Shown here: positions 12,524-63,350 of the stretch, piece by piece
Layout of the letters: every line of letters starts with the position of its first letter
How positions within the stretch are numbered: position 1 is the first letter of the stretch
NCBI GenBank assembly: GCA_964658305.1
Contig: OZ210885.1
Coordinates: forward strand, 24,862,001 to 24,926,000
Origin: Leptogorgia sarmentosa
Lineage: Eukaryota
Length of the DNA stretch: 64,000 bases
Reading direction: 5' to 3'
The notes under the pieces: generated by a model
Database searches by the model: none
Told to the model about the DNA's origin: nothing
What the model saw: only the letters and a program-made list of their open reading frames with translations
Translations under genes and position numbers: made by a program

Positions 12524-12718
12524 TTAATTTATCATCGCACAAATATTTATATGTCTTGTATATTTAAGATACTCTGGGGTGGTCGTTGGCAGAAAGACGC
12601 TGGTGCGACAACCGGCGAGGAAGTTGAGCAAATTAATAGTCATTTCTCTCGACTAGGAAATAGCACTAAACATATGTTACCAGAAGGTGTGTCATTACTC
12701 ATAGATGACTTTATATAC

Positions 12719-13151
12719 CTTATTCGTACTTAATTTCGCGTGACTTTAATTTCGCGATTTTCGCGATTGAAAAAAAATCGCGAAATTAAAGTCGCGCGAA
12801 TAAAAATCCTCGCGAAATTTAACCACGCGAAATTAAATACATTAGTTAAACAATTGGAATTGTTAAATCGTTAATAATTTCTCGATATATATGATCAACA
12901 ACAACATGTACAGCTCGCATATCGTTTTACCGACATCGACATATATAAATTTCAATAAAAGTTAAAATTCAATAAAATTCAATTGTTAAAAGTTAAAATT
13001 CAATAAATGATGGTTTTGCAAATCTGTATTTCGCGAAAATTAATGCCCTATTTCTATTTTCGGTCATCAAAATCGCGAAAATAAAGTCTCGCTAAATATG
13101 GCTTCGACAAAATCGCGAAATTAAGTACGCGCGAAATTAAGTACGAATAAG
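12719..13151. mobile_element. MITE, probably Tc1/mariner group
   Basis: Inverted ends CTTATTCGTACTTAATTTCGCG and CGCGAAATTAAGTACGAATAAG; many subterminal CGCGAAA/TTTCGCG repeats. Confidence 0.65.
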
Positions 13152-15824: not shown

Positions 15825-16550
15825 ATGTTATTTACCGGCTGGGAGATTATTTTACGGCCCGAGGCCGAAGGCCGAGGGACGTTTTTGAGACCGAGACAAA
15901 ATATTTTTCTACCCGGACCGACCTAAACGGTAAATAACGGATTTATTTTTTTGCTGCGCAATGCTATGATCAAACTCATAAGAAATTCCAGTGTAGCGAA
16001 CTAGATTTGAGATCAGTTGTGTTTGTTTACTTTGTTACTCTATCGCAAGTATTGCTGCTAAACAGCCAAGACGAAGTGAAAAAAAACCTTCAGTTTTAGT
16101 ACAATTGCTGCCTTTTCACTCAACATGACAATCAAAAAGGTGAATTTATTGAAATTATTTATCTTCTTTTACATTTCATGATAAAAACACGGTTAAATAT
16201 GCTTTAATACGACACCGAAATATTTCGCCGAAAATGTTTCTTCGTACTAAAAATTATTTATAAAAATATAGAAGTGAAATTAACTTTAAACTTATGTAAA
16301 TCAACTGGTCATAGTATTTTATTAAAAAGGATGAATTTAAGTCAGGATAAACTGCAGATTTTCGATATATATTGCATTTTTTTGCCATTAAAACAAACAT
16401 GCAAAGGATTTTTTATTTGCTTCGGCCATTACGGATTTAGGATTCCGGACCGTGGTCAAGATATCGTAAAATTCCGCCCGCTGCTGCAGCCAATCAGATT
16501 GCAGGAAACGCTAGGATTCCGCCCGCTGCTTATTTACAAAAAAATAAAAC
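15825..16550. repeat. Non-autonomous repeat with CCGAGGCCGAAGGCCGAGG hairpin core
   Basis: Hairpin core at ~15858-15878 and CAGCCAATCAGA motif near the other end; no TIR or TSD; resembles the other CGAG-hairpin repeats in the window. Confidence 0.45.
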
Positions 16551-22896: not shown

Positions 22897-23460
22897 CTAT
22901 ATTTATCATTTATAGACCCTCCGCTTGGGGTATTCGGCGAAATATTTCCTGAAGTGAAGATATCATCACTAGTACTGAAGGAAATATTTCGCCGAATACC
23001 CCGAGCAGAGGGTCTATAAATGCTTTATTATACCGAAAAAAAGGTGTAAAACTTTATATATTTGAGCTTGGTAACAGTTTAGCTTTTTATTTGTGTAACC
23101 AGTATAAGCGACATCCAACAAATACACTTCGGTAATTTATAGGTATGCGTAAAATATTTTTAACGCAGTTTTTATCACCCTCATGGTGTTTGTTCGTCCT
23201 GGCATCCTCGCTCTGCCATTTTTAATTTTTAAAACAAACACAAACCGTGCAATTTCCCGCCAATTTGGAGACCTACTGTAGATGGTGGTTGTCTCGCGTG
23301 GCTACCACGAATGATATACCATGGCAAAACCATATCTCATGGTCATATCCACCGCTGCGTTCACATCCCACCCCCAAGAGGAAGATTCGGCTTTAAATCA
23401 CATGCTCACGAGCTATAAACTAATCGCTTTGATTGGACAATTCAAATTTGAGGTATAATA
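22897..23460. repeat. Non-autonomous repeat with a ~115-nt terminal hairpin
   Basis: CATTTATAGACCCTC...GGGGTATTCGGCGAAATATTTCCT and AGGAAATATTTCGCCGAATACCCC...GAGGGTCTATAAATG (~22907-23022); TGATTGGAC motif near the other end. Confidence 0.55.
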
Positions 23461-25114
23461 ATTATAGATATGCATTGAATTATGCCCATAAATTATTGAA
23501 TTGCATATATATTTGATGTTAAAAGTATCATCTAATTGATATACGCACTATGGTAAAAGAGCAAATATGTTTCCAATAGAGAAGTGAATTTAATGTTGAC
23601 TTTGCTTTTAACGTTGGTCATAACATACTCTAAAGTATTAATAGAAATTTCTGTTTGTTTGAAGTTTCAACTAACACATTGATCTGAGCATATTTGGTTA
23701 CTTGTACCATCAATGAAAGTGCTTAAACGGTATTTAAATGGTATGTTTTTTCATACAGATGATTATACTTCATCATCATGATTATACTTCATCAATTCAT
23801 ATAACAGAATTTAAATACATTTCAAAAAAATTATCCAGTATCCAGTCAGATAGACAATAGCAAAAATCCGGCCGAATAATGTTACTACTGTATAGTCTTT
23901 AGGGATCCATCCAAAGGTACACATTTAACAAAATTAACAGTTATGGTAATTACCCAATCTATTAATATATTACTGCTGAATTAGTCATGTATTCTTTGCA
24001 TGTGTTATTTATTGCATTTCATCATACTTTAATTAAAGACCACTTTTTTTGCATGAGGACTAGGTTTACATCACTTTACGAAAGTCTTCAATGACAATAG
24101 AACCTGCAAACTTAGGTTAAGGCAACAGCACACCTCACCATGTATGCACACATGTACAGACCCATACCCTCTACCTTTATTGTAAAAATTAAAATTAGGC
24201 CTCTCTTCTTTTGGGAAATCTTTGCAATGTTTGACCTTATCACTTTCCTAGACATCTGGACCAATAACTGCCAGCCCCATCCCATTCGACCCATCATTAA
24301 ATCTTGTTAACATTAAACAATGATTGGATGAGGTTTTTGTGTATATATCTATGCAGAATTATCAAGGCAATGGTGAGTGTTACTATCTGAGCTAAAGGCA
24401 AGGCTGACAACACTTACTGAGACCTTGATAATTCAACACATCACAAAAACTGCAATCAATAATTGTGTCAGTACTACGAATTTCAAAAACAAATAAACAT
24501 GACCCTTCAAACTATTTAATACAAGATCCTACAATTGTTTTCTTTTTCAATGCAGTTGTCTGCAGGTTGTGTGATTGCTTAATTTGTTAGCACACAATGT
24601 CTGACCAACCACAATGTATAATTTTAATTTATATGAGTGTAGTCAAACTATCTAAGTAGATATGTACCAAATATATATTTGTTTTATAAATATTATTCAT
24701 TTCATTCAGGTTTATTCATTTCTGCTATGAATACAGTGGGTGATATACAGGGTGTACACTGTAAAAACAGATTGGTTGAAATGACCAAAAAAAATTGGTC
24801 ACCTGGATGCATCTGAGAGAACCAATAAAAATTGGTCATTTTTACCAATAAAATTAACCAATAACTAATTGGTCATTTTAACCAGTAATAATTGGTTAAT
24901 ATAACCAAATATTTTGGTTGTTTTAACCAATTGATTAATGGTTAATTTAATTGGTAAAAACGACCAATTTTAATTGGTTCAAAGAACCAATTAAATTTTA
25001 ATTGATTCCTCAGATGAATCTGCAGATGACCAGTATTACACCTGCGCTATAAAACAATACACATCAGTGAGCATATGTATACATATGGTATTATTTATTA
25101 AAAACTATACAATA

Positions 25115-25885
25115 CAGGGTGTATCAAAAAAAAGTTTACTCGCGAAAAATGTCTTTTAGGCCGAAGCGCACGCACCCCATTGCAAACCATTGGTATATCT
25201 AAGTAGTTTGAGCCCTTCGGATACATCCTACACTAAAAGTTTGCAGAAAACGACCATTTTACGACTACGAAAAGTGTTATAAAAAGCCGTAGTAAAAATG
25301 GCTTGCGCGAAAAAATGTGAGGCGAAAAATGCAATTTGATTTGACAGCCTAAATCTATCGAACAAGTTTCATAAGTTATTCAAGTTTTGAGAAATTTGGT
25401 GCACGCTGAGACGAACGTGCGATGTCCGAAAACTGGATTTTCCGCAATTTCTTCGCGTAATTACGTACCTTTGGGAATTAGCTTCCAATTTGCATTGGTA
25501 ATTAATGCAAATATCCAATTATGCATAAATTAATCGGTAATCACGCAGGAAAGAACGCAAAATCCAGTTTTCGGACATCGCACGTTCGTCTCAGCGTGCA
25601 CCAAATTTCTCAAAACTTGAATAACTTATGAAACATGTTCGATAGATTTAGGCTGTCAAATCAAATTGCATTTTTCGCCTCACATTTTTTCGCGCAAGCC
25701 ATTTTTACTACGGCTTTTTATAACACTTTTCGTAGTCGTAAAATGGTCGTTTTCTGCAAACTTTTAGTGTAGGATGTATCCGAAGGGCTCAAACTACTTA
25801 GATATACCAATGGTTTGCAATGGGGTGCGTGCGCTTCGGCCTAAAAGACATTTTTCGCGAGTAAACTTTTTTTTGATACACCCTG
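25115..25885. mobile_element. Tc1/mariner-type foldback MITE
   Basis: TA-CAGGGTGTATC...GATACACCCTG-TA; near-perfect ~327-bp inverted arms around a ~115-bp spacer. Confidence 0.9.
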
Positions 25886-25919
25886 TATTATTTAAATAGT
25901 ACACACTTAATTATATATA

Positions 25920-26435
25920 TTTATTATATGGCAAGTGTTCTGAGCGGTCCGTCTGCTAAAATACAGCATCCTGATTGGTTCCTGAGCGGTCGGTAACCTG
26001 CAGTACGGACCGCTCACGTTTAGCGACGTCGGTTGTTTATTGAATCAAGCGACAACGAAGACGAAATAAGTTAAAACATGTCCGAACATTCTGTTCTTTT
26101 TTTGTTTCAACATTTTGTTCTTTTTTTGGTAGCCAATAACATTTTAGAGAACAATTTTTAGCGAACTTCTTCAGCTGTTCTTATATTAATTAGCCGTTTA
26201 CCGGCTTTGTTCATAGTGTTGAATTGTTGTAAACGAGTTTTGTTTATCTTTTGCCATATAATAAATAGCTTATTGACTGGGTTTGTTCGATCCGTACTGG
26301 AGGATACTGCACGGTCTCGTTCTTTTCTCGCTTGTTTATGGACCTCGCCTTCGGCTCGGTCCATAAACAGGCGAGAAAAGAACTCGACCGTGCAGTATCC
26401 TCCAGTACGGACCTCACACTCAGTCAATAACATAT
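25920..26435. repeat. Non-autonomous repeat with CTCGCCTTCGGCTCG hairpin core
   Basis: Imperfect hairpin ~26270-26430 (TTATTGACTG...CAGTCAATAA); CTGATTGG motif; flanked by a ~24-bp direct duplication ATAGTACACACTTAATTATATATA. Confidence 0.55.
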
Positions 26436-26502
26436 ATATATATAGAAAAGTCAATAAAATATATAGTACACACTTAATTATATATACATACGTAGAAAAG
26501 CT

Positions 26503-33703: not shown

Positions 33704-34145
33704 TGTTGAGTTAGATACTGTTGCCATCGCTCTATCTTGAATACGAAGCACAACAACTTTGGAGTTTTACACAGTAATAATTTAATCATAAAAATCATTC
33801 ATATATATACAAGATTAATCTATGATAAGTATTTTAACATAACATTCTTTTACCATAAATGGTTTACAAATTTGGTCCATGCAACACATATTTTTACACT
33901 GGAATTTACGGTATACAACATTACATTTTTACCTACATAAACCAATTATCTATATATTACCATTGTCATTTTGATAATTGATTTCATTACTGAATTGACA
34001 GGATATCAGGAGCATATTCTAACACCCCCACTTGCTCTTATATTCTGAGCATCTCTACTTCTTTAATTTTTAATTACTGTTTCTCTATAATCCCATATAT
34101 TTCTATAATTCCATATATTTTTATAATCTTGTGTAACACTAACAT

Positions 34146-34193
<48 letters not shown>

Positions 34194-37100: not shown

Positions 37101-38409
37101 TACCTTTGCCTAAAACAACATTAGCTTTGCTTCCGTCAGCTAACTCTATTACATGCTTACTCGGATCAAACTTTTGATCGAAACTTACAAATTTAGATTT
37201 ATCATTAATTATATGACTCGTTGCCCCTGTATCTACTAATAGATTCGGGGTCTTACCTCCATTGGGAATACTTTCCTTGAGTGTAAATGCAAATGAATGT
37301 ATCTTCTTAGCTTCTTCTTCGTCTTCGCCGGTTTCAGCGGCCATCTTCACACCATCCTTTCTTCCTCTGCAGTCCTTGGTATTATGTGTCTTCGTCTTGC
37401 ACTTGTTGCACCACTTTGCGGTCTTCGTCCAACAATCCGAACTTTTGTGTCCTTTCTTGTCGCACTTAAAACACTTTCCGTCGAATTTCTTGTTCACGAA
37501 CATCACGTTGTCACCATCCTCTGCCTGTCTGCCGCATTTCTCGTTTTCTTCGTGGTTGCGCAACGCGATTTTGAAGTCGCCAAAACTCATTTGTTTTTCC
37601 CGTTGTATCACAACGGTCGAAAACGTTTTATACGTCTTTGGTAGCCCCTTCAGTACCATGGCAATCAGAAGTCCGTCGCTGATCACCTCATCGGCAGCCT
37701 TCAGCGCCGTGGCCGCAGTTTCCGCCCGTATGATGTAGTCCGTTATCGTCTCATTTTCTGCTTTCTTTAACGATGTTAGCTCTGTATACAACGATATTAT
37801 TCTGGGCTTTCCTTTGCCTTGATAATGTTCTCTAAGAACCGTCAGAGCTTTCTTGCCATCGTCTTTCGCCTCTCGTATGACTAGGGCCAAGCTCCTGTCA
37901 TCCAAGCATTGCACAAGTTCGGCAAATGCATCAGCGTTCTTTGCCTCACTGAGTTCTTCTTCATCGCTGCTAGGGATAAAGATCTTGTAGAGTTTTTGGA
38001 GTCGCATGTATCCCAAAAACTTCACCTCCCACAACTCATACTTATTTTCATCTCCATCAAACATTAGACCTCTCCTGGGCCCATAACCTGTTGAGTTAGA
38101 TACTGTTGCCATCGCTCTATCTTGAATACGAAGCACAACAACTTTGGAGTTTTACACAGTAATAATTTAATCATAAAAATCATTCATATATATACAAGAT
38201 TAATCTATGATAAGTATTTTAACATAACATTCTTTTACCATAAATGGTTTACAAATTTGGTCCATGCAACACATATTTTTACACTGGAATTTACGGTATA
38301 CAACATTACATTTTTACCTACATAAACCAATTATCTATATATTACCATTGTCATTTTGATAATTGATTTCATTACTGAATTGACAGGATATCAGGAGCAT
38401 ATTCTAACA
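33704..38409 (-). mobile_element. Full-length Ty1/Copia LTR retrotransposon
   Basis: 321-bp LTRs (TG...CA) at 33704-34024 and 38089-38409, identical by eye. 5-bp TSD TGAAG. PBS GGTTATGGGCCCAG next to the 5' LTR; PPT AAGTGGGGG next to the 3' LTR. Confidence 0.97.
34213..38112 (-). CDS. Copia gag-pol polyprotein (gag, zinc knuckles, protease, integrase, RT, RNase H)
   Basis: CFKCDKKGHKSSDC, LVDTGAT, HCDLAGP...SDNGTEF...NGTVER, QMDVKTAYL, WVDD, FCDSDW, RSKHIDIKYH. Copia domain order; uninterrupted; likely start MATVSNS. Confidence 0.96.
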   Translation of the reverse strand: MATVSNSTGYGPRRGLMFDGDENKYELWEVKFLGYMRLQKLYKIFIPSSDEEELSEAKNADAFAELVQCLDDRSLALVIREAKDDGKKALTVLREHYQGKGKPRIISLYTELTSLKKAENETITDYIIRAETAATALKAADEVISDGLLIAMVLKGLPKTYKTFSTVVIQREKQMSFGDFKIALRNHEENEKCGRQAEDGDNVMFVNKKFDGKCFKCDKKGHKSSDCWTKTAKWCNKCKTKTHNTKDCRGRKDGVKMAAETGEDEEEAKKIHSFAFTLKESIPNGGKTPNLLVDTGATSHIINDKSKFVSFDQKFDPSKHVIELADGSKANVVLGKGNAKVKLYDVNGNLQDVMLSNALYIPSYQQNIFSVPAAIEKGAAVSLDRQVREYRDPKGIVFGIEQVGKLYYLNSISSPQNNASSLVEWHKILGHCNYNDVRKLQSVVKGMKIVDDQEITCEVCTQGKMCQYRNREPDQRAKGSLEFVHCDLAGPVEPAAKDGFKYALSFVDDFTGTNFIYFLKQKSDTVEATERFLADIAPFGRVKRIRSDNGTEFTSRKFRSLLRKNSIKHETSAPYSPHQNGTVERAWRSLFSMARCMLLEANLPKRLWTYAVMTAVYIRNRCFNSRLGKTPYEALTGKQPNLNNMHIFGSTCYALIQNAKKLGDRSRKGVFVGYDKGSPAYLVYHPETNTVERVRCVKFFDKYVSEASNHDQDGLIVPNRETTEPMEATNGQTDENAESKVEIEHSEPRYPTRARNKPTYLDEYITDDNVNHTVDYCFRAVDIPKCYKQAVKSSEADKWQTAMEAEVSALKDNNTFELVSPPKDRQIVGGRWVYAVKIGQNGEETHKARFVAKGYSQVPELDYQETFAPTARMSSIRTLLQRVVQDDMIVHQMDVKTAYLNAPIDCELYMEQPEGFEERGEKGEKLVCKLNKSLYGLKQSGRNWNNILHQYLQKEGFTQSQADPCVYVRMIDPKQCVIVIVWVDDIIIAASLFELLTTVKESLGKRFKMKDLGELSWFLGTEFKCKESCIEMNQKQYIEKILLKFGMSDCKPKPSPCVLGIEKVSEEESPALGDPGEYRAMVGSLIYVMTGTRPDLCYIVTKLSQKLSKPTKANLETAKHVLRYLKGTSDQGLTFRKSNQPLKLNGFCDSDWGASVIDRRSITGYNFQLTSSGPVISWKSRKQQTVALSTCEAEYIALANAVQEAKFLRQLCKDMKVSTGGDDVLIQVDNQGAINLARNPVHHQRSKHIDIKYHFIRSVIQAGIVSLKYVPTEENIADIFTKPTSKGKLEKFKLFLLGS

Positions 38410-43930: not shown

Positions 43931-43973
43931 ATTGTACCGATGAGACTAGTGCCAGTCTCCGCCGAATATTACT

Positions 43974-44436
43974 TGTTATATAGTTGGTGTCAAAGTTCAA
44001 TTTTCCTGTTTGCTGATTCGACAAAACCGTATCACGTGCCGGTCCACAAAACGTCATGTTCGCCAACCGGTCAAAAATCAAAAAATTATTGACCGGGCAA
44101 CAATTAAATGGGCATAATGCGCATGCGCGTCAACCGTGAAGTCCAAAGTTCATTCAATCGTACGATGTTTTTTAAATTTATCGAACATTTACGACGTAAG
44201 GCGTCCTATTTAATGTCTGTTTTTTTATTTCAAAGTTCGCTCCAGTATTAAACCGGTGAATTCATTCATATTTTGACACTAAACTATATAACAAAACACT
44301 TATTTACTGAAACCTCGAGAAATATTGTGTTTTGTGGCCCCTCGACCGCCATTGTTGCCCTCGGCTTCGCCTCGGGTAACAACGGCGGTCTCGGGGCCAC
44401 AAAACACAATGTTTCCCTCGGTCTCAGTGATAAATA
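43974..44436. repeat. Copy of the CGAG/GCGAAGC hairpin repeat family
   Basis: Near-identical to 54261-54725; hairpin at 44297-44436. Confidence 0.85.
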
Positions 44437-46389: not shown

Positions 46390-48309
46390 TTAGTCATCTC
46401 GCTTGTTATATCTTAGCATGACTGAGACCTCAACAGTTTCTTCCAGCGCAGCATCTTGCTGTTTGTTGAATGAATTCTGAAGCAAACTGAACACCCGCTC
46501 AGCTGAAGCAGAACTAGGTTGGACTAATAAGATCTTCTTAACTGCTGTTGACCAGCTAGGAAGAACCTTCTCATGAACAGACCACCACTTCACTTTCCCT
46601 TCCTCCGTTTCAATCTCCACACCTTCTGCAATGGCCAGATACTTCGGAAGTTCGTCGACAAGCTGGGCAATTGCAGCATCAGTAAAAAATCCAAATTGCT
46701 TTAGTTCCTGAACCGAAGCTACATCTGGGTGCAGTTCTTGCACTTTCATTGGACAGCATAATCGAGCAGCTTTGAATGCACGGACTGTGGCATGAAATTC
46801 CCTGCTGAACTTTTGTTGGTAGAATCTAAATCCTGGGGTAATGCAAGCCTTTGCTTGTGCAATTAGTTGATTGTATAATGGCACATTTCCAGCAGCATAC
46901 TGTCGAGCTTTTGCTTCAGTGTTTGGATAAGAATCGATGGCTATTGCATGAGCCAAAGCTGCCAAATGCTCATAGCAACTAAACACTAAAGGCCCATCCC
47001 CTTCAAGGTAGTATGTCGCTGAAACAAAGTGCTTCCCAGCATCAATAATTGCTGCAAGTTCAAGTTCTAAGTCACGAACACTGACTGGGTCTTCAAACAA
47101 TTCTAATAGCCTCGTTCGACATGCGGGAGAAACATCATTTTCTCTTAGAAAAGGCTCCACATCTCCAAAATACTCCACTACCTGATTGAGTACTTCCCAA
47201 AGACTCCACCATCGAGTATTCGACTTACGGAGCATTGCTGTGCCTGTTCTAGTCTTCCATAGTAACCTGGCAGCTGGACTAAGAGAAAACATTGTGTTCC
47301 AGTACCTTGAAAATGTCTCTAGAACTGTAAATTGAAAGTGTTCACCAACGTTATCAATTGTGTGAGAGAAACATGTCACATCAAAAATGTTGGGGAAGTA
47401 AAAATTAACTTGACGCAACCCGGCCCCGTTAACCGCTGCACCATCTCTCATTGCTGCCAGAAGTTGATTCGGTTTAATTGCATACTCAACAGCCAGACAT
47501 TGGATTAAGCGCTGTGCAAGTTGTTCTGCATTAAGGCTCTTTGATAGAACTTCTAATGTAACAAGTCTTTGCTTGATTTTCCATTGGTCAATAAAACGCA
47601 CGACAATAGCCAACGCTTCCCCTAGCCTAGTGCTGCCATCAAAAATTACAGAAAAATTATCATTTGCAGCAATTTCAGCTTTAACACTGTCTTTCTCTTT
47701 CTTAAGAATCAAAGGAATAAATTCAGCCAAATGTGAGCGGGATGTCAATCGATGCCCATGTTTTTCGAGAAATGGTCTCATCACGTCAGCTTTTGAAAGT
47801 GGAATTCCCGCCTTTAGAAGAGTTTCCACAAGCTCATATCGATAGAGTCTCATATCTTCGGGTAATGTAGATCCTTTTGCTCTACTGTTTCTTGCCATGA
47901 GATCAACGATGCTCTGATCTTTCATTTTGCTTTTCCTCATGATATCCTTTGATTTGATATGCTTTTGCGATTTAATGTGCTTCTGCACAGAGCTCTTCTT
48001 TTTAGAAATCGTTTCTTTGCATGCATCACATCCTAGCTTACCCGATTCCACGGTGAGATAGTCGTCTTTAAACTCCTTCAGTCGCTCCCAAGCAGACACA
48101 TTTGGACCGACAGTGCCACGGACATTTTTCTTTCCAGTGGGGTTGGTTTGTACTTTTCTTTTACGGGAAATGTCAGCCTTATCTGGTGTACTCAGTCTGG
48201 CACCCGCTGCAGCTGCTGTCTCTAAAGGATTTTCTTCGGTTGACTGATTTTCTTCTGGATTTTCCTCAGAGTCACTGCTCGAGCTTGGTAAAGTGTCATT
48301 GTCCGCCAT
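46390..48309 (-). CDS. hAT-family transposase, intronless, ~639 aa
   Basis: Zinc finger CDACK...HIKSQKH, VIFDGST, MRDGAAVN, CFSHTID, SNTRWWS, and dimerisation motif QPSSASAERVFSLL. Likely ATG at 48309. One candidate terminus (TAAGGCTGTCCACAAG on the minus strand, ~48704) with AAGTTGC subterminal repeats; the other end was not found. Confidence 0.9.
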   Translation of the reverse strand: MADNDTLPSSSSDSEENPEENQSTEENPLETAAAAGARLSTPDKADISRKRKVQTNPTGKKNVRGTVGPNVSAWERLKEFKDDYLTVESGKLGCDACKETISKKKSSVQKHIKSQKHIKSKDIMRKSKMKDQSIVDLMARNSRAKGSTLPEDMRLYRYELVETLLKAGIPLSKADVMRPFLEKHGHRLTSRSHLAEFIPLILKKEKDSVKAEIAANDNFSVIFDGSTRLGEALAIVVRFIDQWKIKQRLVTLEVLSKSLNAEQLAQRLIQCLAVEYAIKPNQLLAAMRDGAAVNGAGLRQVNFYFPNIFDVTCFSHTIDNVGEHFQFTVLETFSRYWNTMFSLSPAARLLWKTRTGTAMLRKSNTRWWSLWEVLNQVVEYFGDVEPFLRENDVSPACRTRLLELFEDPVSVRDLELELAAIIDAGKHFVSATYYLEGDGPLVFSCYEHLAALAHAIAIDSYPNTEAKARQYAAGNVPLYNQLIAQAKACITPGFRFYQQKFSREFHATVRAFKAARLCCPMKVQELHPDVASVQELKQFGFFTDAAIAQLVDELPKYLAIAEGVEIETEEGKVKWWSVHEKVLPSWSTAVKKILLVQPSSASAERVFSLLQNSFNKQQDAALEETVEVSVMLRYNKRDD

Positions 48310-49103
48310 TGTATTATTTGGTAAGTACTTCGTCTTGCAAGGTTGAATTGGATCCAGGGTAAGATGGGGAAATAAGGGTTGGTTAGGGTTAGGTTGTGTT
48401 ATGGTTGGATCCACTATATGCTTGCAAGATGAAGTAAAACATGCCTACCATTATTTTTTGGATTTTGATCGTGGCAGTTTAAACTTTAAAATATTTATTA
48501 TGCAAAAATACCAAAAGGGGAAAAGAAAATTGAACCTGTAAACAGTAAACTTGTGTTTTCAGCTGGTTTTTTTCATTATGTACTAGATTATTGCCTCAAA
48601 ATAAAAGAAGTTGCTCGAAAGAAAAAAGTTGCCTGAAATTTGAAAAGTTGCCTGAAATCGTAGAAGTTGCTCCAAAGTTGCTGAGCATCTTGTGGACAGC
48701 CTTAGGTATTATATAATAGTTAAATGTTTTAGTGTGACGTAATTGCAAGACTCCGGAGAGTGACGAAATGACAGGCTTGAATACTAATGATCCAGGGGGA
48801 GAATACCCTCCAGAAAATCGGGGACGCAATCGCGAGTGTCCTTGGTCGTTTAAAACTGAATAATAATGAGTTGCTAGTAGTTTTAGCGGTTGGCCGAGCG
48901 GGAGACTGCTGTCTACAACACGATTAAAAAAAAAAAAAAAATAATAAAAAAAATGCCGAATTTAAAGCTTGCTATGCTACGCATCGCAAGCAATAAATAA
49001 ATATCACAATATAATCATCCAACGCTCATCCACTACCATCCCTCACAACAATCATTACACACGTATATCAACCACCTTCCTCCATCATCATGTCTGTTTC
49101 CAC

Positions 49104-49857
49104 CAGTGAATAAAACTGGAACGCTAGCTTCAGGTAAACATGCCCATGCATGCCTGAAGCCAAGATGGCGGAAATTGAAGCCTCTCTTGTAGGTATAAAA
49201 CACGCGTGTTTTTTGCGTGGGGTAGTCACGAAGGGTGAAAGCATGGCGACGAAACGCCGACGATGTTGTGGAAACTCGTTGTTCAAATGCGGAAATTTTG
49301 TAGTTTTTGTTTGAATTATGCAGGATTTTTACGCTATTTCTAAATAATTTTCAAAGTACTGGAGGGAATCAATTTTTGAACATAAATAGTATGAAATATA
49401 TAAGCTACTTAAAACGTAATTAACTTAAAAACAGTAAATGGAAGGCTTGTGCAAGTAGAGCTCTTGTTGTTCGTGTTGTGACTTGTGAGTGATGACTTAA
49501 TTACCTCAGACAATGACAAAATATTTGTTTTTGTTTTTTATACGGCATATAAACGTCTGTTTACAAAGTTTTCTCGAACAATGTCATACAAAAATAATTT
49601 TGCTGCTCCGTTAAGTGTTTCTAAAAGTTGTTCATGCAGAATACCTGCTCTATTCTGTGTTATTATTATCTAAAAAGGTCTGTAAATTGAGTGTTAAGAC
49701 GAGACTTTTTTTACATATTCATAATTGCCGCCATATTGCCTACGGATAATCCGCGCAGGGGCCTGGATCATACCCACAAGACGAGCTTCAATTTCCGCCA
49801 TATTGGCTTCAAAATTTCCCGCCCTGCTAGCGTTCCAGTTTTATTTTGAGTTCACTG
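49104..49857. mobile_element. Second, inverted and internally shortened copy of the 13426-14283 hAT-like MITE
   Basis: Near-identical sequence in reverse orientation; left TIR has a small deletion; no matching TSD. Confidence 0.85.
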
Positions 49858-50585
49858 CTCTTGACCCATCCAATAGCATCAACCATTTACCTCTTTCCCA
49901 ACTCTATCTCGGCGTTGAAGTGTCGAAGCTTCTTGTACTACAGGAGTACACAGCGTTAAATAAAGATGACTTACAGCATTTTTTCCAACGGTGCCAACAT
50001 TTTTATGTCGAGCTTTGCTGCCAGCTTAAGAAGCGATTGCCTTTGGATAACGATGTTCTGAAGCAGTTGAAATTCCTCGATCCACAGACGGTTGTAAATG
50101 GTTCACTTCCAAGTATTGCCGGCATTGCCTCGCGTTTTCCAAATGTCATCTCACCAGAAAATCTTCAAAGTTTAGATCAAGAGTGGAGGGAGTTTACTTA
50201 CGATGACGAAATTTCCGATCTTGTCGATAGATGCGCTGCTGCTCCTACAGAAGCGTTTTGGGCGGAGGTTTCTCGTCTACATTCGAAAAAGTATCAGCAT
50301 TTATTGGAATTTGCTCAAGTGATGTTTACGATTCCAATCAGTAACGCTGATAGCGAGCGTGTCTTTTCACAAGTAAACTTGATTAAATATAAAACCGTTC
50401 ACAGGAACAGATTTTCTATCGAAGGTGTTGCTTCAATTATATTTGTAAAAGAAGGTGTTAAAGATGCAGCAGATTCATGTGCTCATTTCCAACCAACCAA
50501 GGAAATGATTCAAAAGTGCAATAAAGAAATGTATCATAATGTTGAAGCGGTGTACGGGACTGAAGAAGGGTCTGATACAGACTAA
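49858..50585 (+). pseudogene. 3' fragment of a second hAT transposase
   Basis: FLDP...EAFWAEV...TIPISNADSERVFSQVNLIK...RNR dimerisation domain; hAT-like end CTGGTCACACTG at 51342-51353; 5' part missing. Confidence 0.8.
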
Positions 50586-52067: not shown

Positions 52068-52660
52068 CAACTACCACCGATCCCCTCAATCGAAATCTAA
52101 CCCAAACCCTAAACCTGACCCTAACCACCTCCAACCTAAATGGATCCCTGTCGTCACCCAATCCTTAATCTGACCCTAACCAATCAAATCCGAACCCCTT
52201 GGAAGTGGTTAGTGTTAGATTAAGGATTGGGTTTGGGTTATGTTGAGGGTGTGTTTAGGGGTTAGGGTGGAATTGGTTAGGGGCAGATTAATGATTGGGT
52301 GGGGGTTTTGTTGAGGGTGTGTTTGAGGGTTAGGGTGGAATTGGTTAGGGTCAGGTTAAGGATTGGGTTGGGGTTATGTCGAGGGTGTGTTTAAGGGTTA
52401 GGGTGGAATTGGTTAGGGTCAGATTAAGGATTGGGTTGGGGTTATGTTGAGGGTGTGTTTAAGGGTTAGGGTGGGATTAAGGATTGGGTTAGGATTATGT
52501 CGAGGGTGTGTTTAAGGGTTAGGGTGGAATTGGTTAGGGTCAGATTAAGGATTGGGTTTGGGTGAGGACAGGGGTCCATTTAGGTTGGAGGTGGTTAGGG
52601 TCAGGTTTAGGGTTTGGGTTGGGGTTAGATTTCGATTGAGAGGATCGGTGGTAGTTGTCC
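52068..52660. mobile_element. Foldback element with telomere-like repeats (Mutator/Rehavkus-like)
   Basis: ~115-bp inverted arms CAACTACCACCGATC.../...GATCGGTGGTAGTTG enclosing ~5 copies of a 68-bp unit containing GGGTTAGGG; TSD not found. Confidence 0.6.
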
Positions 52661-53310: not shown

Positions 53311-55400
53311 ATTATCACTTATTTACTGAGACCGAGGGAAACATTTAACACTTATTGACTGGGCCCAAGGGAAACAGTGTGTTTTGTGGACCCGAGACCG
53401 TTGATGTTTCCCGAGGCGAAGCCGAGGGAAACATCGATGGTCGAGGGTCCACAAAACACACTGGTTTCCCGAGGGCCCAGTCAATAAGTGCTTTATTATT
53501 ATACCAATCGTCAAAGAAACGACAAAATAAAGCGGAACAAGTGAACAAGAATGCACGAAATATTTTATTCTTAAAATATTAATTATCACTTATTTACTGA
53601 GACCGAGGGAAACATTGTGTTTTGTGGCCCCGAGACTGCCGTTGTTGCCCGAGGCGAAGCCGAGGGCAACAATGGCGGTCGAGGGGCCACAAAACACAAT
53701 GTTTCCCGAGGTTTCAGTAAATAAGTGTTTTGTTATATAGTTTAGTGTCAAAATATGAATGAATTCACCGGTTTAATACTGGAGTGAACTTTGAAACCAA
53801 AAAACAGACATTGAATGGGACGCCTTACGCCATCAAAACATCGTAAAAATTTCAAAACATCGTACGATTGAATGAACTTTGGACTTCACGGTTGACGCGC
53901 ATGCGCATTGTGCCCATTTAATTGTTGCCCGGTCAATAATTTTTTGATTTTTGACCGGTTGGCGAACATGACGTTTTGTGGACCGGCACGTGATACGGTT
54001 TTGTCCAATCAGCAAACAGGAAAATTGAACTTTGACACCAACTATATAACAAATAAAATTAAAGCATTAGCAGGTCGTCCAAAGGTCGCGTCTTCACGTG
54101 ATGGCGCACGTGATTTTTTGTTGTTGTTCACCGGTGAATAACGTATTATCTCCCTCTTGCTGATGCGAGGGAGACAGTCTAATTTCGTCACTCTCACGTG
54201 ATACGCTCTCGACCAATGAAACACAAGAAAAGGGAAACTTTGACGATTGGTATATAATATTGTTATATAGTTGGTGTCAAAGTTCAACTTTCCTGTTTGC
54301 TGATTGGACAAAACCGTATCACGTGCCGGTCCACAAAACGTCATGTTCGCCAACCGGTCAAAAATCAAAAAATTATTGACCGGGCAACAATTAAATGGGC
54401 ACAATGCGCATGCGCGTCAACCGTGAAGTCCAAAGTTCATTCAATCGTACGATGTTTTGAAATTTTTACGATGTTTTGATGGCGTAAGGCGTCCCATTCA
54501 ATGTCTGTTTTTTGGTTTCAAAGTTCACTCCAGTATTAAACCGGTGAATTCATTCATATTTTGACACTAAACTATATAACAAAACACTTATTTACTGAAA
54601 CCTCGGGAAACATTGTGTTTTGTGGCCCCTCGACCGCCATTGTTGCCCTCGGCTTCGCCTCGGGCAACAACGGCAGTCTCGGGGCCACAAAACACAATGT
54701 TTCCCTCGGTCTCAGTAAATAAGTGATAATTATTATATACCAATCGTCAAAGTTTCTCTTTTCTTGTGTTTCATTGGTCGAGAGCGTATCACGTGAGAGT
54801 GACGAAATTAGACTGTCTCCTTCGCATCAGCAAGAGAGGGAGATAATACGTTATTCACCGGTGAACAACAACAAAAAAATCACGTGCGCCATCACGTGAA
54901 GACGCGACCTTTGGACGACCTGCTAATGCATTAATTTAATTTAATATTTTAAGAATAGAATATTTCGTGCATTCTTGTTCACTTGTTCCGCTTTATTTTG
55001 TCGTTTCTTTGACGATTGGTATATAATAAAGCACTTATTGACTGGGCCCTCGGGAAACCAGTGTGTTTTGTGGACCCTCGACCATCGATGTTTCCCTCGG
55101 CTTCGCCTCGGGAAACATCGACGGTCTCGGGTCCACAAAACACACTGTTTCCCTTGGGCCCAGTCAATAAGTGTTAAATGTTTCTCGAGGTTTCAGTAAA
55201 TAAGTGTTTTGTTATATAGTTTAGTGTCAAAATATGAATGAATTCACCGGTTTAATACTGGAGTGAACTTTGAAAACAAAAAACAGTGACAGCAGTCGAC
55301 ATTTTACTAAATTTCAAAACATCGTACGATTGAATGAACTTTGGACTTCACGGTTGACGCGCATGCGCATTGTGCCCATTTAATTGTTGCCCGGTCAATC
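53311..55400. repeat. Complex inverted cluster of CGAG/GCGAAGC hairpin repeats
   Basis: Inverted pairs 53581-54051/54260-54732, 54052-54258/54735-54940 and 53340-53580/54941-55180; partial copy 55186-55400; four ~140-nt hairpins. Confidence 0.88.
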
Positions 55401-55541: not shown

Positions 55542-58500
55542 ATGGCGACCGCTAAAGGAGAGGGAAAGCGTCGTAGATCCAAACCAACACAAAGTTTGGA
55601 AGCTAGCCTTGAAGAATTACAAAAAGTGGCTAAGAATTTCAAGACATCTAAGCCTAAAAAATTAACAAAGTTTTTTAATTCGTATGATGGTTCTGGTAAA
55701 AAGGTTCCATCGGGCAAAGGGTATAAATATCGATCGACGGCCGAACGTGCTTCAAAACAACGCGTTGCAAAATCTACTCCGATAGAAGGTAGCTCTGAAT
55801 ATATAGTAGGTTCCTACTTAGAACTGTACATATGGAATTATATGTGACGATGATGTTCATTTAACTTTGTAGACGACCCATCTGAGTTATATATGGAAGA
55901 AGAATCTTCAAGTTCAAGCGGCGTGGAGACAGCAACAGGTCTGAATTGTTTTTTTTTATTATAATCCTTGTTCAGGCTGTTCAACTGAAAGATTAAAAAC
56001 GTAGACCCCTTTCTTATAAGCATTAATCTTAATCCATACTTGAGTCAGTTACTTTGTGCAATTGCTAGCTACGTAGGTTAGAAAAACATGTTTTTCCCCT
56101 GCAGACTGCAGTGCACAACTGCCACAACACATACTGTAGCAGCAACTGAACACCATATTGGAGCTGCAAATTGTTCAGGATTAACTGCGAGTGCGAGCTG
56201 TAAATAGAAAATGCAAGTTTTCCAACCTAGTGTACAAGGTCTTTGTCAAATATTTTTCAGAAAGTCTAAGTGACTGTATTGAGGCATGCAATCAAATGAC
56301 AGAAGAGATGGAATCCAATAGTCTGTCAGCATGGACAAAAAGAATGATGTCAGTTGATGCAAGCTGGGAAAGCAGTAGATCATCCATATTTGATGCCCTT
56401 CTTAGAAGCCATGCTGTCCCTTCTCCTGATGCAACTTGCTTTTCATGTCATGAAGGACATGCAGTAATAAGATGTCATCAATGTGGACCAAGGGTTTTAC
56501 TGTGCTCGGCCTGTGACGAGAAGATTCATGAAACAAACACCCTACATGACCGTGATGTTTGGATGAATGGATTTTTTCAAGCAGTTCCTCCTACGACAAT
56601 TGTATTAGAAGATGGCTCCTTAGGATTTGTTAGTAAGTTAAATTAAATTCCATTGTAAATATTACTGTAAAATAATGAAAATGAGGCTGTCGGTTGCATT
56701 TTTTAAATTTTTGACACAGGAAATGTGTGGTCATCGACTCACTCCCTTTTTCATTTGGGTAACTCTTTTATGATACCGGTACATGAAGTTGAATGATGTA
56801 GAATGTACTGTATAAAAGAAGAGAATTATGTAAGCGCAAAAGAGATTTGTATGTGTAGAGACAAAAATCCAGTGCACTTGAAAATATCAACTATTTAAAG
56901 GAAATTTTTTTGGTGACAAGAATGCTTGCAGTTAGACAAAATTTTCTCATTTATATTGTTTGATATTTTATTCTTGTTAATAGAAAGATGTCCACCTTTT
57001 GCCCTATGTAAGATGTGTTTGTTCTGCAAGGAAAAAGATACAATTGTTTCAGTTCCCTTGGATGAGTCTTGCATAGTTGTAACTTCTAGAGGTACGTAAG
57101 TATATGAATAATTGAAAAAATTTTCATGATTAAAGTGAAGCATAGTATCATATTGAGCTACATTATGAATTTGCTTTAATAGTCTACATTTTGTGAATAT
57201 TGCTAAGAAGGACAAAGGATTAAAAAGACGAACCATAATTATTTGTGAATTTAGCTTAGAAGGACAAATGATTAAAAAAGACCAACCATAATTATAATTT
57301 CCAGCATTTTTAAAATCCTGATTCTTAAATTTTAGGACGGTATGACTTGTTTCACTGCATGTATCAGTGTGGCAACTGTGAGCAGCAATATTCACCTTTA
57401 TCTTTGGATAAATTGATCGGTGAAGGATATTGGCCTGGAAGTCCAAACCAGTTCAACCAAGTTTTTTCAGACGATTTGTTTCGTCTTTGGGATTCTGTAA
57501 GGAAGCACATGCCAGGAACGTCTGAATCAGCATTTATTAGATCGCTGGGGACCATTTCAAGCGAAAAGGGCAGGGTATGCTTTTTTGAATTGTGCTTTTT
57601 AACCCATTACAATGTACATGTAGCTGATAACACAGTTACACCCAATATCCACCCTAGTATTTTACTCTCTCAAGGGTGTTTAGTTTACCAGTTGGTGGAA
57701 TGTTGAATGTGGATGCATTTTACTATAGTTGTGCACACAATTTTTGTTAATTACAATGAGATTATACATGCTGATTGGTCAATATGCCTGTTTGAATCAG
57801 GCCATCCAAAGTACGGTACAAACTTGCCTAAATTTATTTAGATGTTGCTTCAGTTGAGAAAAGCTAAGAAGCCAATTGCCTGCTGCCTAAGATTTCTCAG
57901 CTTTTTTCAACTCTCACAACATCCTAGTGTGTTTGGATCAGGCCATCCAAACCTGGAAACCATTAGGTTATTCTTTATTGTGATTTCAACCACTCATTGT
58001 GTTCATTATAAACCCAGATAAATTTGGATGCTTTTCTGTGTGACCTATTCAGTCAAGGTAACAAGAATATTCATTTTGCTGCAACAAGTTTGAATTTTTG
58101 AAAAATATATTTCTGTAGTCATCTACAATCAATGTGACAGTATTTCACCGGGCATTCAAGGAATGGTGTTTTGCTGTACATGAGATAGAAGCCATACAAG
58201 GAAAGAACTGGATGGAGTGTCCATGTTGTTTTCAACACCAGCATTCTTGCCATGTGGATGGAAATGCTAAATTGTATAGATATAGTTGTGTTCCAAGGTA
58301 CTGTTAATATACTGTTTTATTAAACTAGCATGCTTTCACCATTGTGCAGTGAAATTTTAAAAGGTTCTGTCAGTTATATTCTCCTATGTATAATAATACA
58401 TTCTACATTCTTATAATTTTGCAGAGGTGAGCGAGGCTGTTATTATGGGAACCTGTTTGTAGAAGAAAAAGAAGCTGTTGATGCTCATTTAGAAAATGTC

Positions 58501-61500
58501 TATTCATCAGGTTCATCAAAGGTATACTGCTTTTCTAATACAATTAAATTAACCACTTGATGAATGCACTCCTACACTTTCTACTTGTATCTATAATTAT
58601 ATTTTTTATGTATTTCAGAAAACCTCTGCAAATTCTTATTGTGGGACAGCTAACTGGAAAGCAGCAAGAAATACAGCAAATGCGAGGTCAAAATTAGATG
58701 AAACTGGGCTTGAGGTTGCTGGTTGCCGACATGCGCTCGCTCAAGGGGCTGTTAATATGTACCAAGGAGAATTGTTTGGCTACACACATTATCTTCAGGT
58801 TAACAGACTGGTTCCACAAGGTGTCATGTTTTTATGGCAGGATGTTGTGTGCAAATACTGGCCATGGTTCACTTCACTTCCTGAAGAACTTTCTCCCCAA
58901 GAGACATTCCTTATGAAACCTGCACTTTCAATTATGCATGGAAAAGCACACATCTGGTCTTGTCAGGTGATTGTGGCTGTATAATAACGACTACTATAGC
59001 AAGGCATATATAGAACCATGTGTGTGTGACCATATGACGATTGATATTAGAAGCTATTGATGTAGGGCCCAAGAAGAATATTTTTTACTTGAACTTCCTT
59101 ATCATGGATACAATACTGATTATAAGCTTTTCAATACTTCTTCATTTAGGTCACATGGGGTGGGCGGTGGCAAGAAGGTAGTGCATATACAACAGGCGAG
59201 GAGGTGGAGCAAATTAACAGCTACATATCAAGACTTGGATCCACGACGAAGTATATGAATGCTGCAGGTATTCATTATAAATTGTATATAAATTATATAT
59301 TACATATAGGTATTCATTATAAATTGTATATAAATTATATATTACATATATACAGATGTTTTGCAGGATCAAACTACAAAACTTGAAATGTATAACAAAA
59401 ATATTTGCTATTAGTAAAACTTCGACTAGATCTACTAACAAACTACAAACGTCGCCATTGTAGGTAGCGCATCAGAATATCAATAAGCAGCAAAAGTTCT
59501 ACTCACTATCTAAACGATACAAAAAGTTTCGACGTTTCGAGCGAAGGCCCTTCATCGGGAATTAGTAGTAGGGTCGGGGGAAAAACGCATTTGTTTTATA
59601 TAAGTGAATATATTAAAACAACACGTGACAAAGTAAAAACCAACCAACCAGATGGATTTGATAAAAAACAAGTGTAAACAAAAAATGAACGAGTTTTGAA
59701 CGATCCTTGTTGCTTGTTGATATATCTACTAACCCTAGTAATCCTAAAATTTTCATATTATTATTGAAATTTTGCAGGGCGCAATGAAGCACTTACAGAA
59801 CATGTTATGTACTGGAACAAACAAAAGGTTCTAAAGCTCCATTTAAGTTTGTCAAAGAGATATGTTGAGGTATACAGTACTTAGTTTTCACAGTTTTGCT
59901 ACTGTAGTATTTTCATTATAATTTAATTCCTATTCAATTGGCTATCTTTCTAGGTTAAAAAAATGTTGGATTCCAATAAAGAAGAACTCAGGAAAGAAAT
60001 GGATGCAATTGGTAGCCTTAACCAGCTAGAAGGAGATCACGTAGAAAATTGGAGAAAAGCAATGGTCAGATGTGGAAGACGTATGTATTCATTGTACAGT
60101 CTATTGCGTTTCATCATCTCTAAAGCAAAGGATAGTTAAGTTAATTGAGCTAGAAAATACAACACAATTGAAACTGAGGCATAGGTAAATTTTACTCTTC
60201 GCTTGTATTTTGCACTCATCAACAGGCTGATCGTCGAACCACTGGAAATCATTGGTTTGTATTTTCTACAGCTTTTCTTACCATGTTATATTTTAAGCAA
60301 GATAGATGTTAGTTAATTTGCCTGTTTCGGATTGCAGGTATTCAACTTGGAGAAGACGTGGTAAGCAAGGACGAAAGTGATTTGATGCAATATTATCAAC
60401 TCACAATTGAAATTGCTGAAGCGAATTCTCTCAAACCTTTTGTGGAAGAAGCTCGTGATGGTGTAGGCACTGCGCTCGTTACCGGAAATGATGCACTTTT
60501 CAAGCAAGCACTACAAAAGCAGGAGGAAATTGAAAGGAAAAATGGATTGGTTGAGAAACTGGAATCACGTTTGGGCATTCGTGGATGTGAAAGGTAAAAG
60601 GCGAAAGCTTTTGAAGATGGACTGCGACTTTTGGCTTCTAAGAAACGCAAGCACGTTCGCGAAGAAGTTGAAATGCTGAGTTTTTCCATTTCCCAGAGAG
60701 TAAAGAATATAAGTCGTTTGGCAGGTAGATATGTGACATTCTACGTGTTATTATTTCGAAATGAATATTCCGTATTAGTATAATTACATACAGTTGGTGA
60801 TTATTCAGAATTCTTAACGCTGATTGGCTGCCCTTGGGTGATTATTAGTTATTACACGATAATCACCTAATGCGTTTTATTTTTCAGAATGGCTGGTAGC
60901 CTTCTCAGTATGTAATGCGTCTCTAGTATTGATACAGCTGTTGATATCATCTCTTTGCAGATTCTTCTAAACAGAGATCAAGGCTACGCAGTAAGAACTC
61001 AAGCGAAAAAAAGAAACTAGAAGATTTGGTTACTCAAATGAACATGGTGAACAACGTGTTGGGTGAAACAGAAGATCACCTTAATTTTGACCAGGCTCTA
61101 AATGGCCATTTTCCATGGATAAATGGAGAAGATAATGATGGTATTTTTTCGCATAGTCTGACTCAATGTTATCATATTATAACAAAATTAACTACTGCAA
61201 ATAGTTTATACTGTAGTCTAATGTTTCTTTTATTAGATAAAGTGCCATTGCGAGCAAAGAGAAAGGCTGTTGAGATATACCTGACTGGAAAACGACTGGA
61301 AGAGGAGATTTTGCTTTTGGAGAAGGAAATGATCCGATTTCTTTGTTATTACCGAGATAAAGTTATTCCAGATCTCTCCTCTCGTTTAGATTCCCTGAAC
61401 GGTATGTTTATATTAAAATGTGTAGAACGAGGAATAAGACTAATACAAATTTAGAAATAGTACCAGAAAGTGCCAGAAATAGTTCTGTCATACTCATATA

Positions 61501-63161: not shown

Positions 63162-63350
63162 TTATTATATAAAACAAATAATGAATGTTTTTATTCGTGC
63201 AATGGTAGGAATATTTTCTTAATTTCATTCGGTGAAATATGGGATGTTCCATTTAACTCGGCCTCGCCTCGTTGAATAGATCATTCCATCTTTCACCTCA
63301 TGAAAATATTCTTACCATTGCACTCATAAACATTCACTATTTGTATAATA
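63162..63350. repeat. Small imperfect-palindrome repeat with CTCGGCCTCGCCTCG apex
   Basis: GTGCAATGGTAGGAATATTTTC pairs with GAAAATATTCTTACCATTGCAC; the apex resembles the GCGAAGC family. Confidence 0.6.

What the first reader, a model, noticed from the sequence alone, without database searches (positions are those of the whole stretch)
53349..53727. Strand-specific ~140-nt hairpins with periodic tandem G.A mismatches and a GCGAAGC cap
Seen: 53587-53727 folds into one long stem interrupted three times by 5'-CGAG-3'/3'-GAGC-5' (tandem G.A/A.G) and closed by GC-GAA-GC; the other mismatches are G.T. The sister hairpin 53349-53490 has different stem sequence with compensatory changes but keeps the motif positions (one CGAG is CAAG) and the cap. 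Reverse-strand copies lie at 44297-44436, 54585-54725 and 55032-55173; related apices occur at ~15860, ~26343 and ~63258. Known: CGAG tandem sheared G.A pairs and d(GCGAAGC) are unusually stable in single-stranded DNA; the complementary strand would give T.C and A.C mismatches. Inference: selection acts on a folded single strand, implying a single-stranded intermediate and a protein that reads it. Candidates are a Crypton-like tyrosine recombinase, an HUH nuclease or a hairpin origin. The elements have no TIR or TSD and end in TA-rich sequence.
Basis: partly seen in the sequence, partly recalled or inferred. Interest (0 to 1): 0.78.

Follow-up and report, generated by a model that had tools for sequence, protein, structure and literature searches.

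The report
G·A-studded hairpin ends of mini-transposons
These hairpins are one end of small, gene-less jumping elements, likely of the recombinase-driven Crypton group, and their mismatches fit only one DNA strand, which suggests that the element would move as folded single-stranded DNA, as bacterial integron cassettes do.

Summary
In a motif-blind scan, all 8 long hairpins found in the window were of this type. All 19 of their 2x2 loops were tandem G.A, always on one strand within a hairpin. Stems covary (27 of 63 pairs).

The hairpin is only the left end of 445-560-bp gene-less elements: hairpin, ATAA-N8-TTAT dyad, inverted repeat, body, partner repeat plus 3 nt. Joining the two ends would lengthen the stem by about 22 bp and place a recombinase-type site in it, as in CTX phage attP. 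Metagenome contigs hold unrelated families with the same layout.

Corrections: subterminal inverted repeats exist. The G.T bias is not general (35 vs 32 A.C). Four of the five copies are two near-identical pairs in one nested cluster.

The recombinase link is indirect. The window has no such gene. One contig has G.A hairpins 350-500 nt behind a CryptonA recombinase end, in a different layout.

Best reading: non-autonomous CryptonA-type elements likely recombining as folded single strands (0.5). A Helentron-type rival remains. This scan noted the same design on other DNA before. I found no paper describing it.

The parts
53583..54052 (+). Element B, complete 470-bp non-autonomous copy, inserted into the body of element A
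   Evidence: Filled versus empty site (A body vs E body) shows a clean insert with at most a 2-nt AA ambiguity; loose ends of 7 contigs at 54052 in run X1
53587..53727 (+). Hairpin B: 63 pairs, three tandem G.A loops, C-GAA-G cap
53721..53736 (+). Dyad site ATAA-N8-TTAT at the hairpin base (recombinase-site-like geometry; role inferred)
   Evidence: TTAT at +8 in 12 of 16 copies vs 18 of 1077 background ATAA
53733..53752 (+). Inner inverted repeat (IR-L) of B
54005..54009 (+). CCAAT box 45 nt before the right-end ATAA of B; a CCAAT/ATTGG box lies near the right end in 9 of 11 copies
54030..54052 (+). Right end of B: partner inverted repeat (IR-R) plus 3 nt complementary to the dyad spacer
   Evidence: at least 3 leading spacer matches in 9 of 11 copies with an IR-R
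53345..54259 (+). Element A (about 446 bp without the nested B)
   Evidence: loose ends at 54259 in runs X1 and X5
53349..53490 (+). Hairpin A: two tandem G.A loops, one AA/GA loop, 1-nt bulge, C-GAA-G cap
53484..53499 (+). Dyad site ATAA-N8-TTAT of A
   Evidence: sequence
54260..54729 (-). Element D, family B, 469 of 470 identical to B; sits between the right ends of A and E
54730..55177 (-). Element E, uninterrupted family A copy; its right end is joined head-to-tail to D's left end
53312..53344 (+). Left stub of an outer, broken family-B copy (5' arm up to the point where A starts)
   Evidence: (family D8)
55178..55399 (+). Remainder of the outer broken family-B copy (3' arm base, site, partly deleted body)
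   Evidence: (D9, D11)
43973..44433 (-). Element C, dispersed older family-B copy (about 95% identical to B)
25921..26437 (-). Different family with the same layout (CC-GAA-GG cap, three G.A loops, dyad site, IR pair); left end approximate
22903..23461 (+). Different family with the same layout, found without the apex motif (TGAA/TGAA loop, dyad site, IR pair)
63190..63330 (-). Older hairpin of a further family, three G.A loops
15828..15950 (+). Decayed hairpin end with GCC-GAA-GGC apex; no right end found

Best explanation
The hairpins are the left ends of 445-560-bp gene-less mobile elements, likely non-autonomous CryptonA-type (tyrosine recombinase) transposons, whose G.A-bearing strand likely folds on its own and would serve as the recombination substrate. 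Shown: the layout hairpin / ATAA-N8-TTAT / IR-L / body / IR-R, clean insertion without duplication, head-to-tail junctions, covarying stems and strand-fixed G.A loops. Inferred: in the folded strand IR-R pairs with IR-L. Joining the two ends extends the stem by about 22 bp and creates a duplex two-arm site with a small unpaired centre. A recombinase would exchange one strand pair there, releasing or inserting a single-stranded circle, and replication would complete the event, as for CTX phage attP and integron attC. The sheared G.A blocks and the C-GAA-G cap would make only that strand fold fast and stably, giving strand choice.
For: 19 of 19 2x2 loops are tandem G.A on one strand in a motif-blind scan. 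Outside the selected apex, G.A outnumbers C.T 47 to 12 in 22 copies, and 29 to 9 with one copy for each of 15 family groups (p=0.002); 14 of 29 2x2 loops are GA/GA and 0 are TC/TC. 27 of 63 pairs show two-sided changes; covariation score 0.41 vs 0.15 shuffled and at most 0.10 when slid. The middle G.A loop, not part of the search pattern, is intact in 8 of 10 aligned rows. Apex-to-site distance is 66-69 nt in 12 of the 18 copies measured (the pattern allowed 56-82). The dyad with an 8-nt spacer is in 12 of 16 copies vs 18 of 1077 background; right ends carry at least 3 nt of the spacer complement in 9 of 11. The modelled B end-junction folds into the extended stem. The same junction type occurs naturally at E|D and in a contig of run X1 (54259 to 53345). 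Contig L108 has two G.A/GAA hairpins 350-500 nt behind the intron-split C-terminal motifs of a CryptonA-like recombinase. It was the only hit of the recombinase profile, among 167 sequences, outside the two recombinase contigs found by family search. Literature (passages read): YR sites are two inverted arms around 6-8 bp, and medaka non-autonomous CryptonA are 353 and 554 bp (PMC3212892). CTX attP is a ~150-bp fold of two palindromic sites 90 nt apart (PMC5357621). Active Cryptons gained copy number despite clean excisions (PMC9977147). CGAG blocks form sheared pairs in DNA by NMR (PMC10085684). Mini-hairpins are far more stable in DNA than RNA (PMC13037366).
Against: No recombinase gene in the window (Pfam; profile) and no long coding copy of families A or B was found. 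The L108 match is weak (E 0.0025 and 0.058; no Pfam hit). L108 lacks the dyad site and has the gene upstream on the G.A strand, whereas the window elements have their body downstream, so it may be another subtype or a neighbour. Two other CryptonA recombinase contigs showed no such end hairpin: L160 is riddled with insertions and L163 is cut at the gene's 3' end. No G.T over A.C bias. The outer G.A loop is fully paired in the L119 family, and several distant families (L028, L117, L129) have only the apex loop. L111 has its apex flipped relative to the body. Palindrome arms can covary by arm-to-arm copying without selection (established knowledge). A CryptonA recombinase model resembles QRICH1 and Cre more than the integron integrase (ranks 1-2 vs 35). 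Kojima and Jurka found no terminal repeats in animal Cryptons.
Confidence: 0.5

Rival explanations
1. Same Crypton-type elements, but recombination is conventional on double-stranded DNA or a cruciform. The folded G.A strand serves another step, such as priming second-strand synthesis or protecting a displaced strand.
For: Mini-hairpins GCGAAGC and CCGAAGG occur at single-strand priming sites of phage G4 and RSF1010 ssiA (PMC13037366 passages). The intact dyad on the 3' arm is a normal duplex site. The enzyme model is closest to Cre among recombinases. The G.A loops lie 15-60 bp from the dyad.
Against: Around the actual end junction the two sides are completed into a site only by pairing with the other arm. 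The right end carries exactly the complement of IR-L and of 3 spacer nt.
Confidence: 0.2
2. Non-autonomous Helentrons (HINE/DINE-1 type) moved by an HUH Rep-helicase; the hairpin is an oversized 3' terminator palindrome.
For: Read on the other strand the layout is subTIR 3 nt from the 5' end, second subTIR, then a terminal palindrome, with no TSD, as HINEs have (PMC4067079 passages). B inserted between two T on that strand.
Against: HINE palindromes are 5-10 bp and the 3' subTIR lies 38-60 bp from the end; here about 70 bp and about 150 bp. T|T flanks fit B but not C, D, E or L101. The 3' terminus is AA, not a T run. No central tandem repeats. G.A hairpins lie beside a recombinase in L108. The PIF1-like helicase in L144 is interrupted by, not contained in, the element.
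Confidence: 0.13
3. No protein reads the loops: arm-to-arm copying homogenises the palindrome, and CGAG/CGAG loops persist because well-stacked sheared pairs escape correction or relieve palindrome instability.
For: The outer loop is converted to perfect pairing in the L119 family, and an apex inversion occurred in L111, so arm copying and flipping happen. No G.T bias.
Against: It does not explain fixed polarity to the body, constant spacing, or the complete lack of TC/TC loops on the motif strand in unrelated families.
Confidence: 0.1
4. The fold is selected in RNA (small-RNA precursor or RNA signal).
For: RNA folding also favours the motif strand (B -119.6 vs -101.5). A mouse pre-miRNA is wholly Eulor5A-derived (PMC3495686 passage).
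Against: No Rfam family near its gathering score. The C-GAA-G triloop is a DNA-specific stable motif. No G.U enrichment. The hairpin is always the terminus of a DNA-type element.
Confidence: 0.05

Closest known systems
CryptonA DNA transposons and their non-autonomous derivatives (Kojima and Jurka 2011, PMC3212892, passages and supplement 1; Eulor5/Eulor6 in Kojima 2018, PMC5753468, passages)
   Same: Animal host, size class (353-554 bp), no TSD, no classical TIR. That Eulor5/6 carry a similar capped palindrome is recalled, not tested; the figure could not be seen and no supplement was available.
   Different: The passages read report no terminal repeats, hairpin or palindrome (0 occurrences of these words in three Crypton papers) and propose a circular intermediate. 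No coding partner was found here.
CTX phage attP with XerCD (PMC5357621 passage; PMC3442271 abstract start)
   Same: About 150-nt fold of two inverted half-sites forming one duplex site; integration splits the site; one strand exchange then replication (inferred here).
   Different: Bacterial, host-encoded enzymes, one fixed target, no excision, no periodic G.A loops known to me.
Integron attC cassettes (PMC2727003 abstract)
   Same: Strand-specific folded site, structure conserved over sequence, unpaired centre, head-to-tail stacking.
   Different: Strand choice there is by extrahelical bases near the crossover, here by tandem G.A loops further up the stem. The site here is split between the two element ends.
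SE elements, strand-biased circularizing integrative elements (PMC9345347 abstract)
   Same: Tyrosine recombinase elements that copy out a circle of one strand.
   Different: Bacterial, four genes, 7 kb; their end structure was not compared here.
HINE / DINE-1 non-autonomous Helentrons (PMC4067079 passages)
   Same: subTIR pair, terminal palindrome outside the second subTIR, no TSD.
   Different: Palindrome about ten times longer, 8-nt dyad, non-T ends and flanks.

Membership tests
CryptonA (non-autonomous) | Autonomous partner with the same ends encodes a DUF3504 tyrosine recombinase | tested here: inconclusive
   None in the window. One weak, differently built case, L108. Recombinase contigs L160 and L163 are uninformative. 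No relative confirmed in viral contigs.
CryptonA (non-autonomous) | No target site duplication | tested here: met
   One filled/empty pair (B in A body vs E body), at most 2 nt ambiguity.
CryptonA (non-autonomous) | No classical TIRs at both termini | tested here: met
   One repeat is terminal, its partner lies about 150 nt inside, behind the hairpin.
CryptonA (non-autonomous) | Terminal similarity to Repbase CryptonA / Eulor5-6 consensus | not testable with these tools
   No repeat library on hand; paper figure not readable.
Tyrosine recombinase site | Two inverted arms around a 6-8 bp spacer | tested here: met
   ATAA-N8-TTAT in 12 of 16 copies vs 18 of 1077 background. The symmetric core is only 4-7 bp, shorter than the 11-13 bp arms of textbook sites.
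Folded single-strand YR substrate (attC / CTX attP) | Strand-specific structural marks | tested here: met
Folded single-strand YR substrate (attC / CTX attP) | Enzyme cleaves the folded strand; single-stranded circle exists | not testable with these tools
   Only assembled contigs were laid; a junction contig cannot tell a circle from a tandem.
HINE / Helentron | subTIRs, one 2-4 nt from the 5' end, no TSD | tested here: met
   IR-R lies 3 nt from the terminus.
HINE / Helentron | 5-10 bp 3' palindrome; 3' subTIR 38-60 bp from the end | tested here: not met
   About 70-bp stem, about 150 bp from the end.
HINE / Helentron | Insertion in TT with T-run termini | tested here: not met
   T|T in 1 of 5 copies read by eye (B yes; C, D, E, L101 no).
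Known RNA families | Match to an Rfam model | tested here: not met
   Best 23 bits vs gathering 80 in the window; best 35 vs 100 in 9 loci.

The most novel reading that the evidence does not exclude
Animal CryptonA transposons are eukaryotic counterparts of integron cassettes and CTX phage: a tyrosine recombinase copies out and inserts one folded DNA strand, chooses it by sheared G.A blocks and a GNA cap, and stacks elements head-to-tail at each other's ends.
Probability: 0.4. Interest if true: 0.85.

Novelty: new variant of a known kind. Interest (0 to 1): 0.62.

Why it matters
How Cryptons move has not been shown in the papers read; the standing model is a double-stranded circle, and it does not explain copy gain. 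These ends give a defined substrate, a predicted cut region and a strand prediction, so the question becomes testable with oligonucleotides and one enzyme. A single-strand recombinase working in animal nuclei would extend a chemistry known from bacteria and could be useful for DNA insertion. The design also gives a sequence-independent way to find these repeats.

Tried and rejected
No whole genome is held for the window, so copy counts and long copies could not be sought there.

Viral contigs: the apex pattern gave 41 loci, of which 6 (one record series: L002, L003, L028, L036, L039, L040) hold long hairpins and the rest are short or chance. A first ungapped check missed them. Three further patterns gave 43, 1 and 4 loci without such hairpins.

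Metagenome scan: 58 loci. 15 were taken as real long hairpins by arm score and eye (L086, 089, 092, 100, 101, 102, 107, 108, 111, 112, 116, 117, 118, 119, 129, 138 minus the doubtful L112 gives 15); the rest were dropped. Part of that output was cut from view and re-read. L100, L102, L107 and L111 were left out of the mismatch count, and L112 was kept. L098 is a perfect hairpin in a bacterial-looking contig and was dropped.

Prokaryote genome scan: 6 loci, 1 real (L144, eukaryote-like contig in a MAG). Recombinase searches of 380, 400 and 401 genomes found only 2 genomes with CryptonA-type genes, neither informative for ends.

The automatic IR-R finder was misled by the inverted duplicates and was replaced. 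In one search L144's IR-R was probably mis-picked and counts as a miss.

Summed contig depth over the elements (up to about 98,000 vs 178 in the flank) shows a repeat but is no copy number. Only one read-laying is available, so the termini rest on 11 copies.

Rejected: G.T bias as an argument; nearest-neighbour energy as a strand test (I assume the parameters understate sheared-pair and mini-hairpin stability); Rfam membership.

Not in print, as far as searched: (the apex sequence itself occurs in 0 papers). Repbase Reports, subscription journals and the Kojima 2018 figure were not visible and may describe these ends.

Full report
Setting. The window is AT-rich (33-44% GC), repeat-dense eukaryotic DNA. 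Pfam finds copia, hAT, KDZ/Zisupton, DUF6589 with a DEAD/Helicase_C pair, and zf-AD pieces. An animal host is inferred; the species was not identified. No whole genome is held.

Observation. All five hairpins are at the stated coordinates with the stated loops and cap. A scan blind to the motif found 8 long hairpins in 64 kb. All 19 of their 2x2 loops are GA/GA or the complementary TC/TC, never mixed within a hairpin; this is 11 of 11 when counted once for each of 5 families. The five listed copies are two families. D matches B at 469 of 470 positions, and E matches A at 436 with 6 mismatches and 7 gaps.

Anatomy. Each hairpin is the left end, on the G.A strand, of a 445-560-bp element. At the hairpin base lies ATAA-N8-TTAT (12 of 16 copies; background 18 of 1077). 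Its right arm starts an inner inverted repeat of about 20 bp. After 250-440 nt the element ends in the partner repeat plus 3 nt complementary to the spacer (9 of 11 copies). A CCAAT or ATTGG box lies before that end in 9 of 11. Comparing B's site in A with the empty site in E shows a clean insert without duplication beyond a 2-nt ambiguity. Contigs of runs X1 and X5 leave the window sequence at 54052 and 54259.

The cluster. 53312-55399 is nested: a broken outer B copy, A with B inside it, D between the right ends of A and E, then E. E's right end is joined directly to D's left end. A contig of run X1 joins A's right end to A's left end in the same way (54259 to 53345, one letter between, depth 193 near the flank's 178). 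This is more likely a genomic tandem than a free circle, and contigs cannot decide. Such a junction folds into a stem about 22 bp longer, with a small asymmetric loop in the spacer.

Relatives. A metagenome scan on apex plus a downstream AATAA gave 58 loci, about 15 with real long hairpins in several families. One more came from a eukaryote-like contig in a MAG and six from one viral record series. In a 10-row alignment, 27 of 63 pairs show two-sided changes; covariation is 0.41 against 0.15 shuffled and at most 0.10 slid. These rows are two related groups, so changes are not independent events. The unselected middle G.A loop is intact in 8 of 10 rows, while the outer loop is variable and fully paired in the L119 family. 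With neutral scoring and the apex excluded, G.A outnumbers C.T 47 to 12 in 22 copies and 29 to 9 per family group. G.T does not outnumber A.C (35 vs 32). Apex-to-site distance is 66-69 nt in 12 of 18 copies measured. L111 has the apex flipped against its body and outer loops.

DNA or RNA. NMR shows CGAG blocks with sheared pairs in DNA hairpins (PMC10085684, passages). A review gives 82 C for a DNA GCGAAAGC fragment and 39 C for the RNA (PMC13037366, passages). All intact caps keep C-GAA-G with three different closing stems. No Rfam family matches. Energy models separate the strands weakly, and not at all in 7 of 22 copies.

Which enzyme. No recombinase is in the window. I obtained CryptonA-type proteins from two MAG contigs and a protein search and built a profile. 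Among 167 held sequences it hit only those two contigs and L108. L108 carries intron-split GHRS and YKR motifs and, 350-500 nt after the stop, two G.A/GAA hairpins on the coding strand. The hit is weak, the dyad is absent and the orientation differs from the window elements. The two recombinase contigs lack usable ends. A model of one such protein (pLDDT 86) is closest to QRICH1 and Cre, with the integron integrase at rank 35. So Crypton membership rests on size, lack of TSD, dyad geometry, L108, a recalled resemblance to Eulor5/6, and unverified earlier notes; I put it near 0.75. Helentron/HINE shares the coarse layout but fails on palindrome size, spacing and TT flanks.

Mechanism. Shown: layout, covariation, strand-fixed loops, clean insertion, head-to-tail junctions. 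Inferred: the G.A strand folds when single-stranded, IR-R pairs with IR-L, one strand exchange near the spacer releases or inserts a single-stranded circle, and replication finishes it. CTX attP is a ~150-bp fold of two sites 90 nt apart (PMC5357621, passage). attC strand choice depends on structural marks (PMC2727003, abstract). SE elements copy out one strand (PMC9345347, abstract). Active algal Cryptons gained copies despite clean excision (PMC9977147, passages).

Prior work. Three Crypton papers contain neither 'hairpin' nor 'palindrom' in their main text, and six searches found no description. Repbase Reports and figures were not visible. This scan's earlier notes describe the same design in other genomes, most reading it as Crypton and one as Helentron. 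I had stated the Crypton and folded-strand reading before seeing them. They are leads, not support.

Verdict. A real, well-supported structure; a probable new description of a known transposon class; mechanism plausible and testable but unshown. Interest 0.62.

Noticed in passing
window 53312-53344 and 55178-55399: The outer B copy has lost its hairpin centre at mirror positions of both arms, and an A-family left end sits at each break. This looks like insertion into the folded stem, or two insertions followed by deletion.
   Followed up: partly
L111:266-407: Hairpin whose apex is inverted relative to its outer loops and body, showing that the centre can flip.
   Followed up: partly
L028:2299-3081: Two hairpin ends facing outward around a short body, a head-to-head pair like B-D, in a viral-collection contig with a different base motif.
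   Followed up: no
window 6030-11160: DUF6589 ORFs with a DEAD/Helicase_C pair and zf-AD upstream; AcademH-like (label recalled).
   Followed up: no
window 33704-38388: Copia element with an intact 1307-aa ORF and 300-bp LTRs 100% identical, so very young.
   Followed up: no
window 11690-12733 and 57329-59386: KDZ (Zisupton-type) transposase pieces with a CxC3 domain.
   Followed up: no
window 46390-48414 and 49725-50585: Two hAT-type ORFs with dimerisation domains.
   Followed up: no
window 25106-25894: Element with 346-bp inverted arms, 98% complementary, directly beside the right end of the 25921-26437 element.
   Followed up: no
window 25889-25922 and 26456-26489: A 34-bp direct repeat (82%) on both sides of the 25921-26437 element, offset by about 20 bp on the left; not a clean TSD.
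   Followed up: no
window 52194-52623: 68-bp tandem array rich in TTAGGG-like words with an inverted copy of one unit to its left.
   Followed up: no
window 24325-24458: Decayed hairpin that may be a further family of the same kind.
   Followed up: partly
window 20185-21324: 379-aa ORF on the minus strand without a Pfam match.
   Followed up: no
L144 (whole), L160, L163: Bacterial MAGs G001 and G371 contain eukaryote-like contigs with introns, a PIF1-like helicase and CryptonA recombinase genes; probably host contamination.
   Followed up: partly
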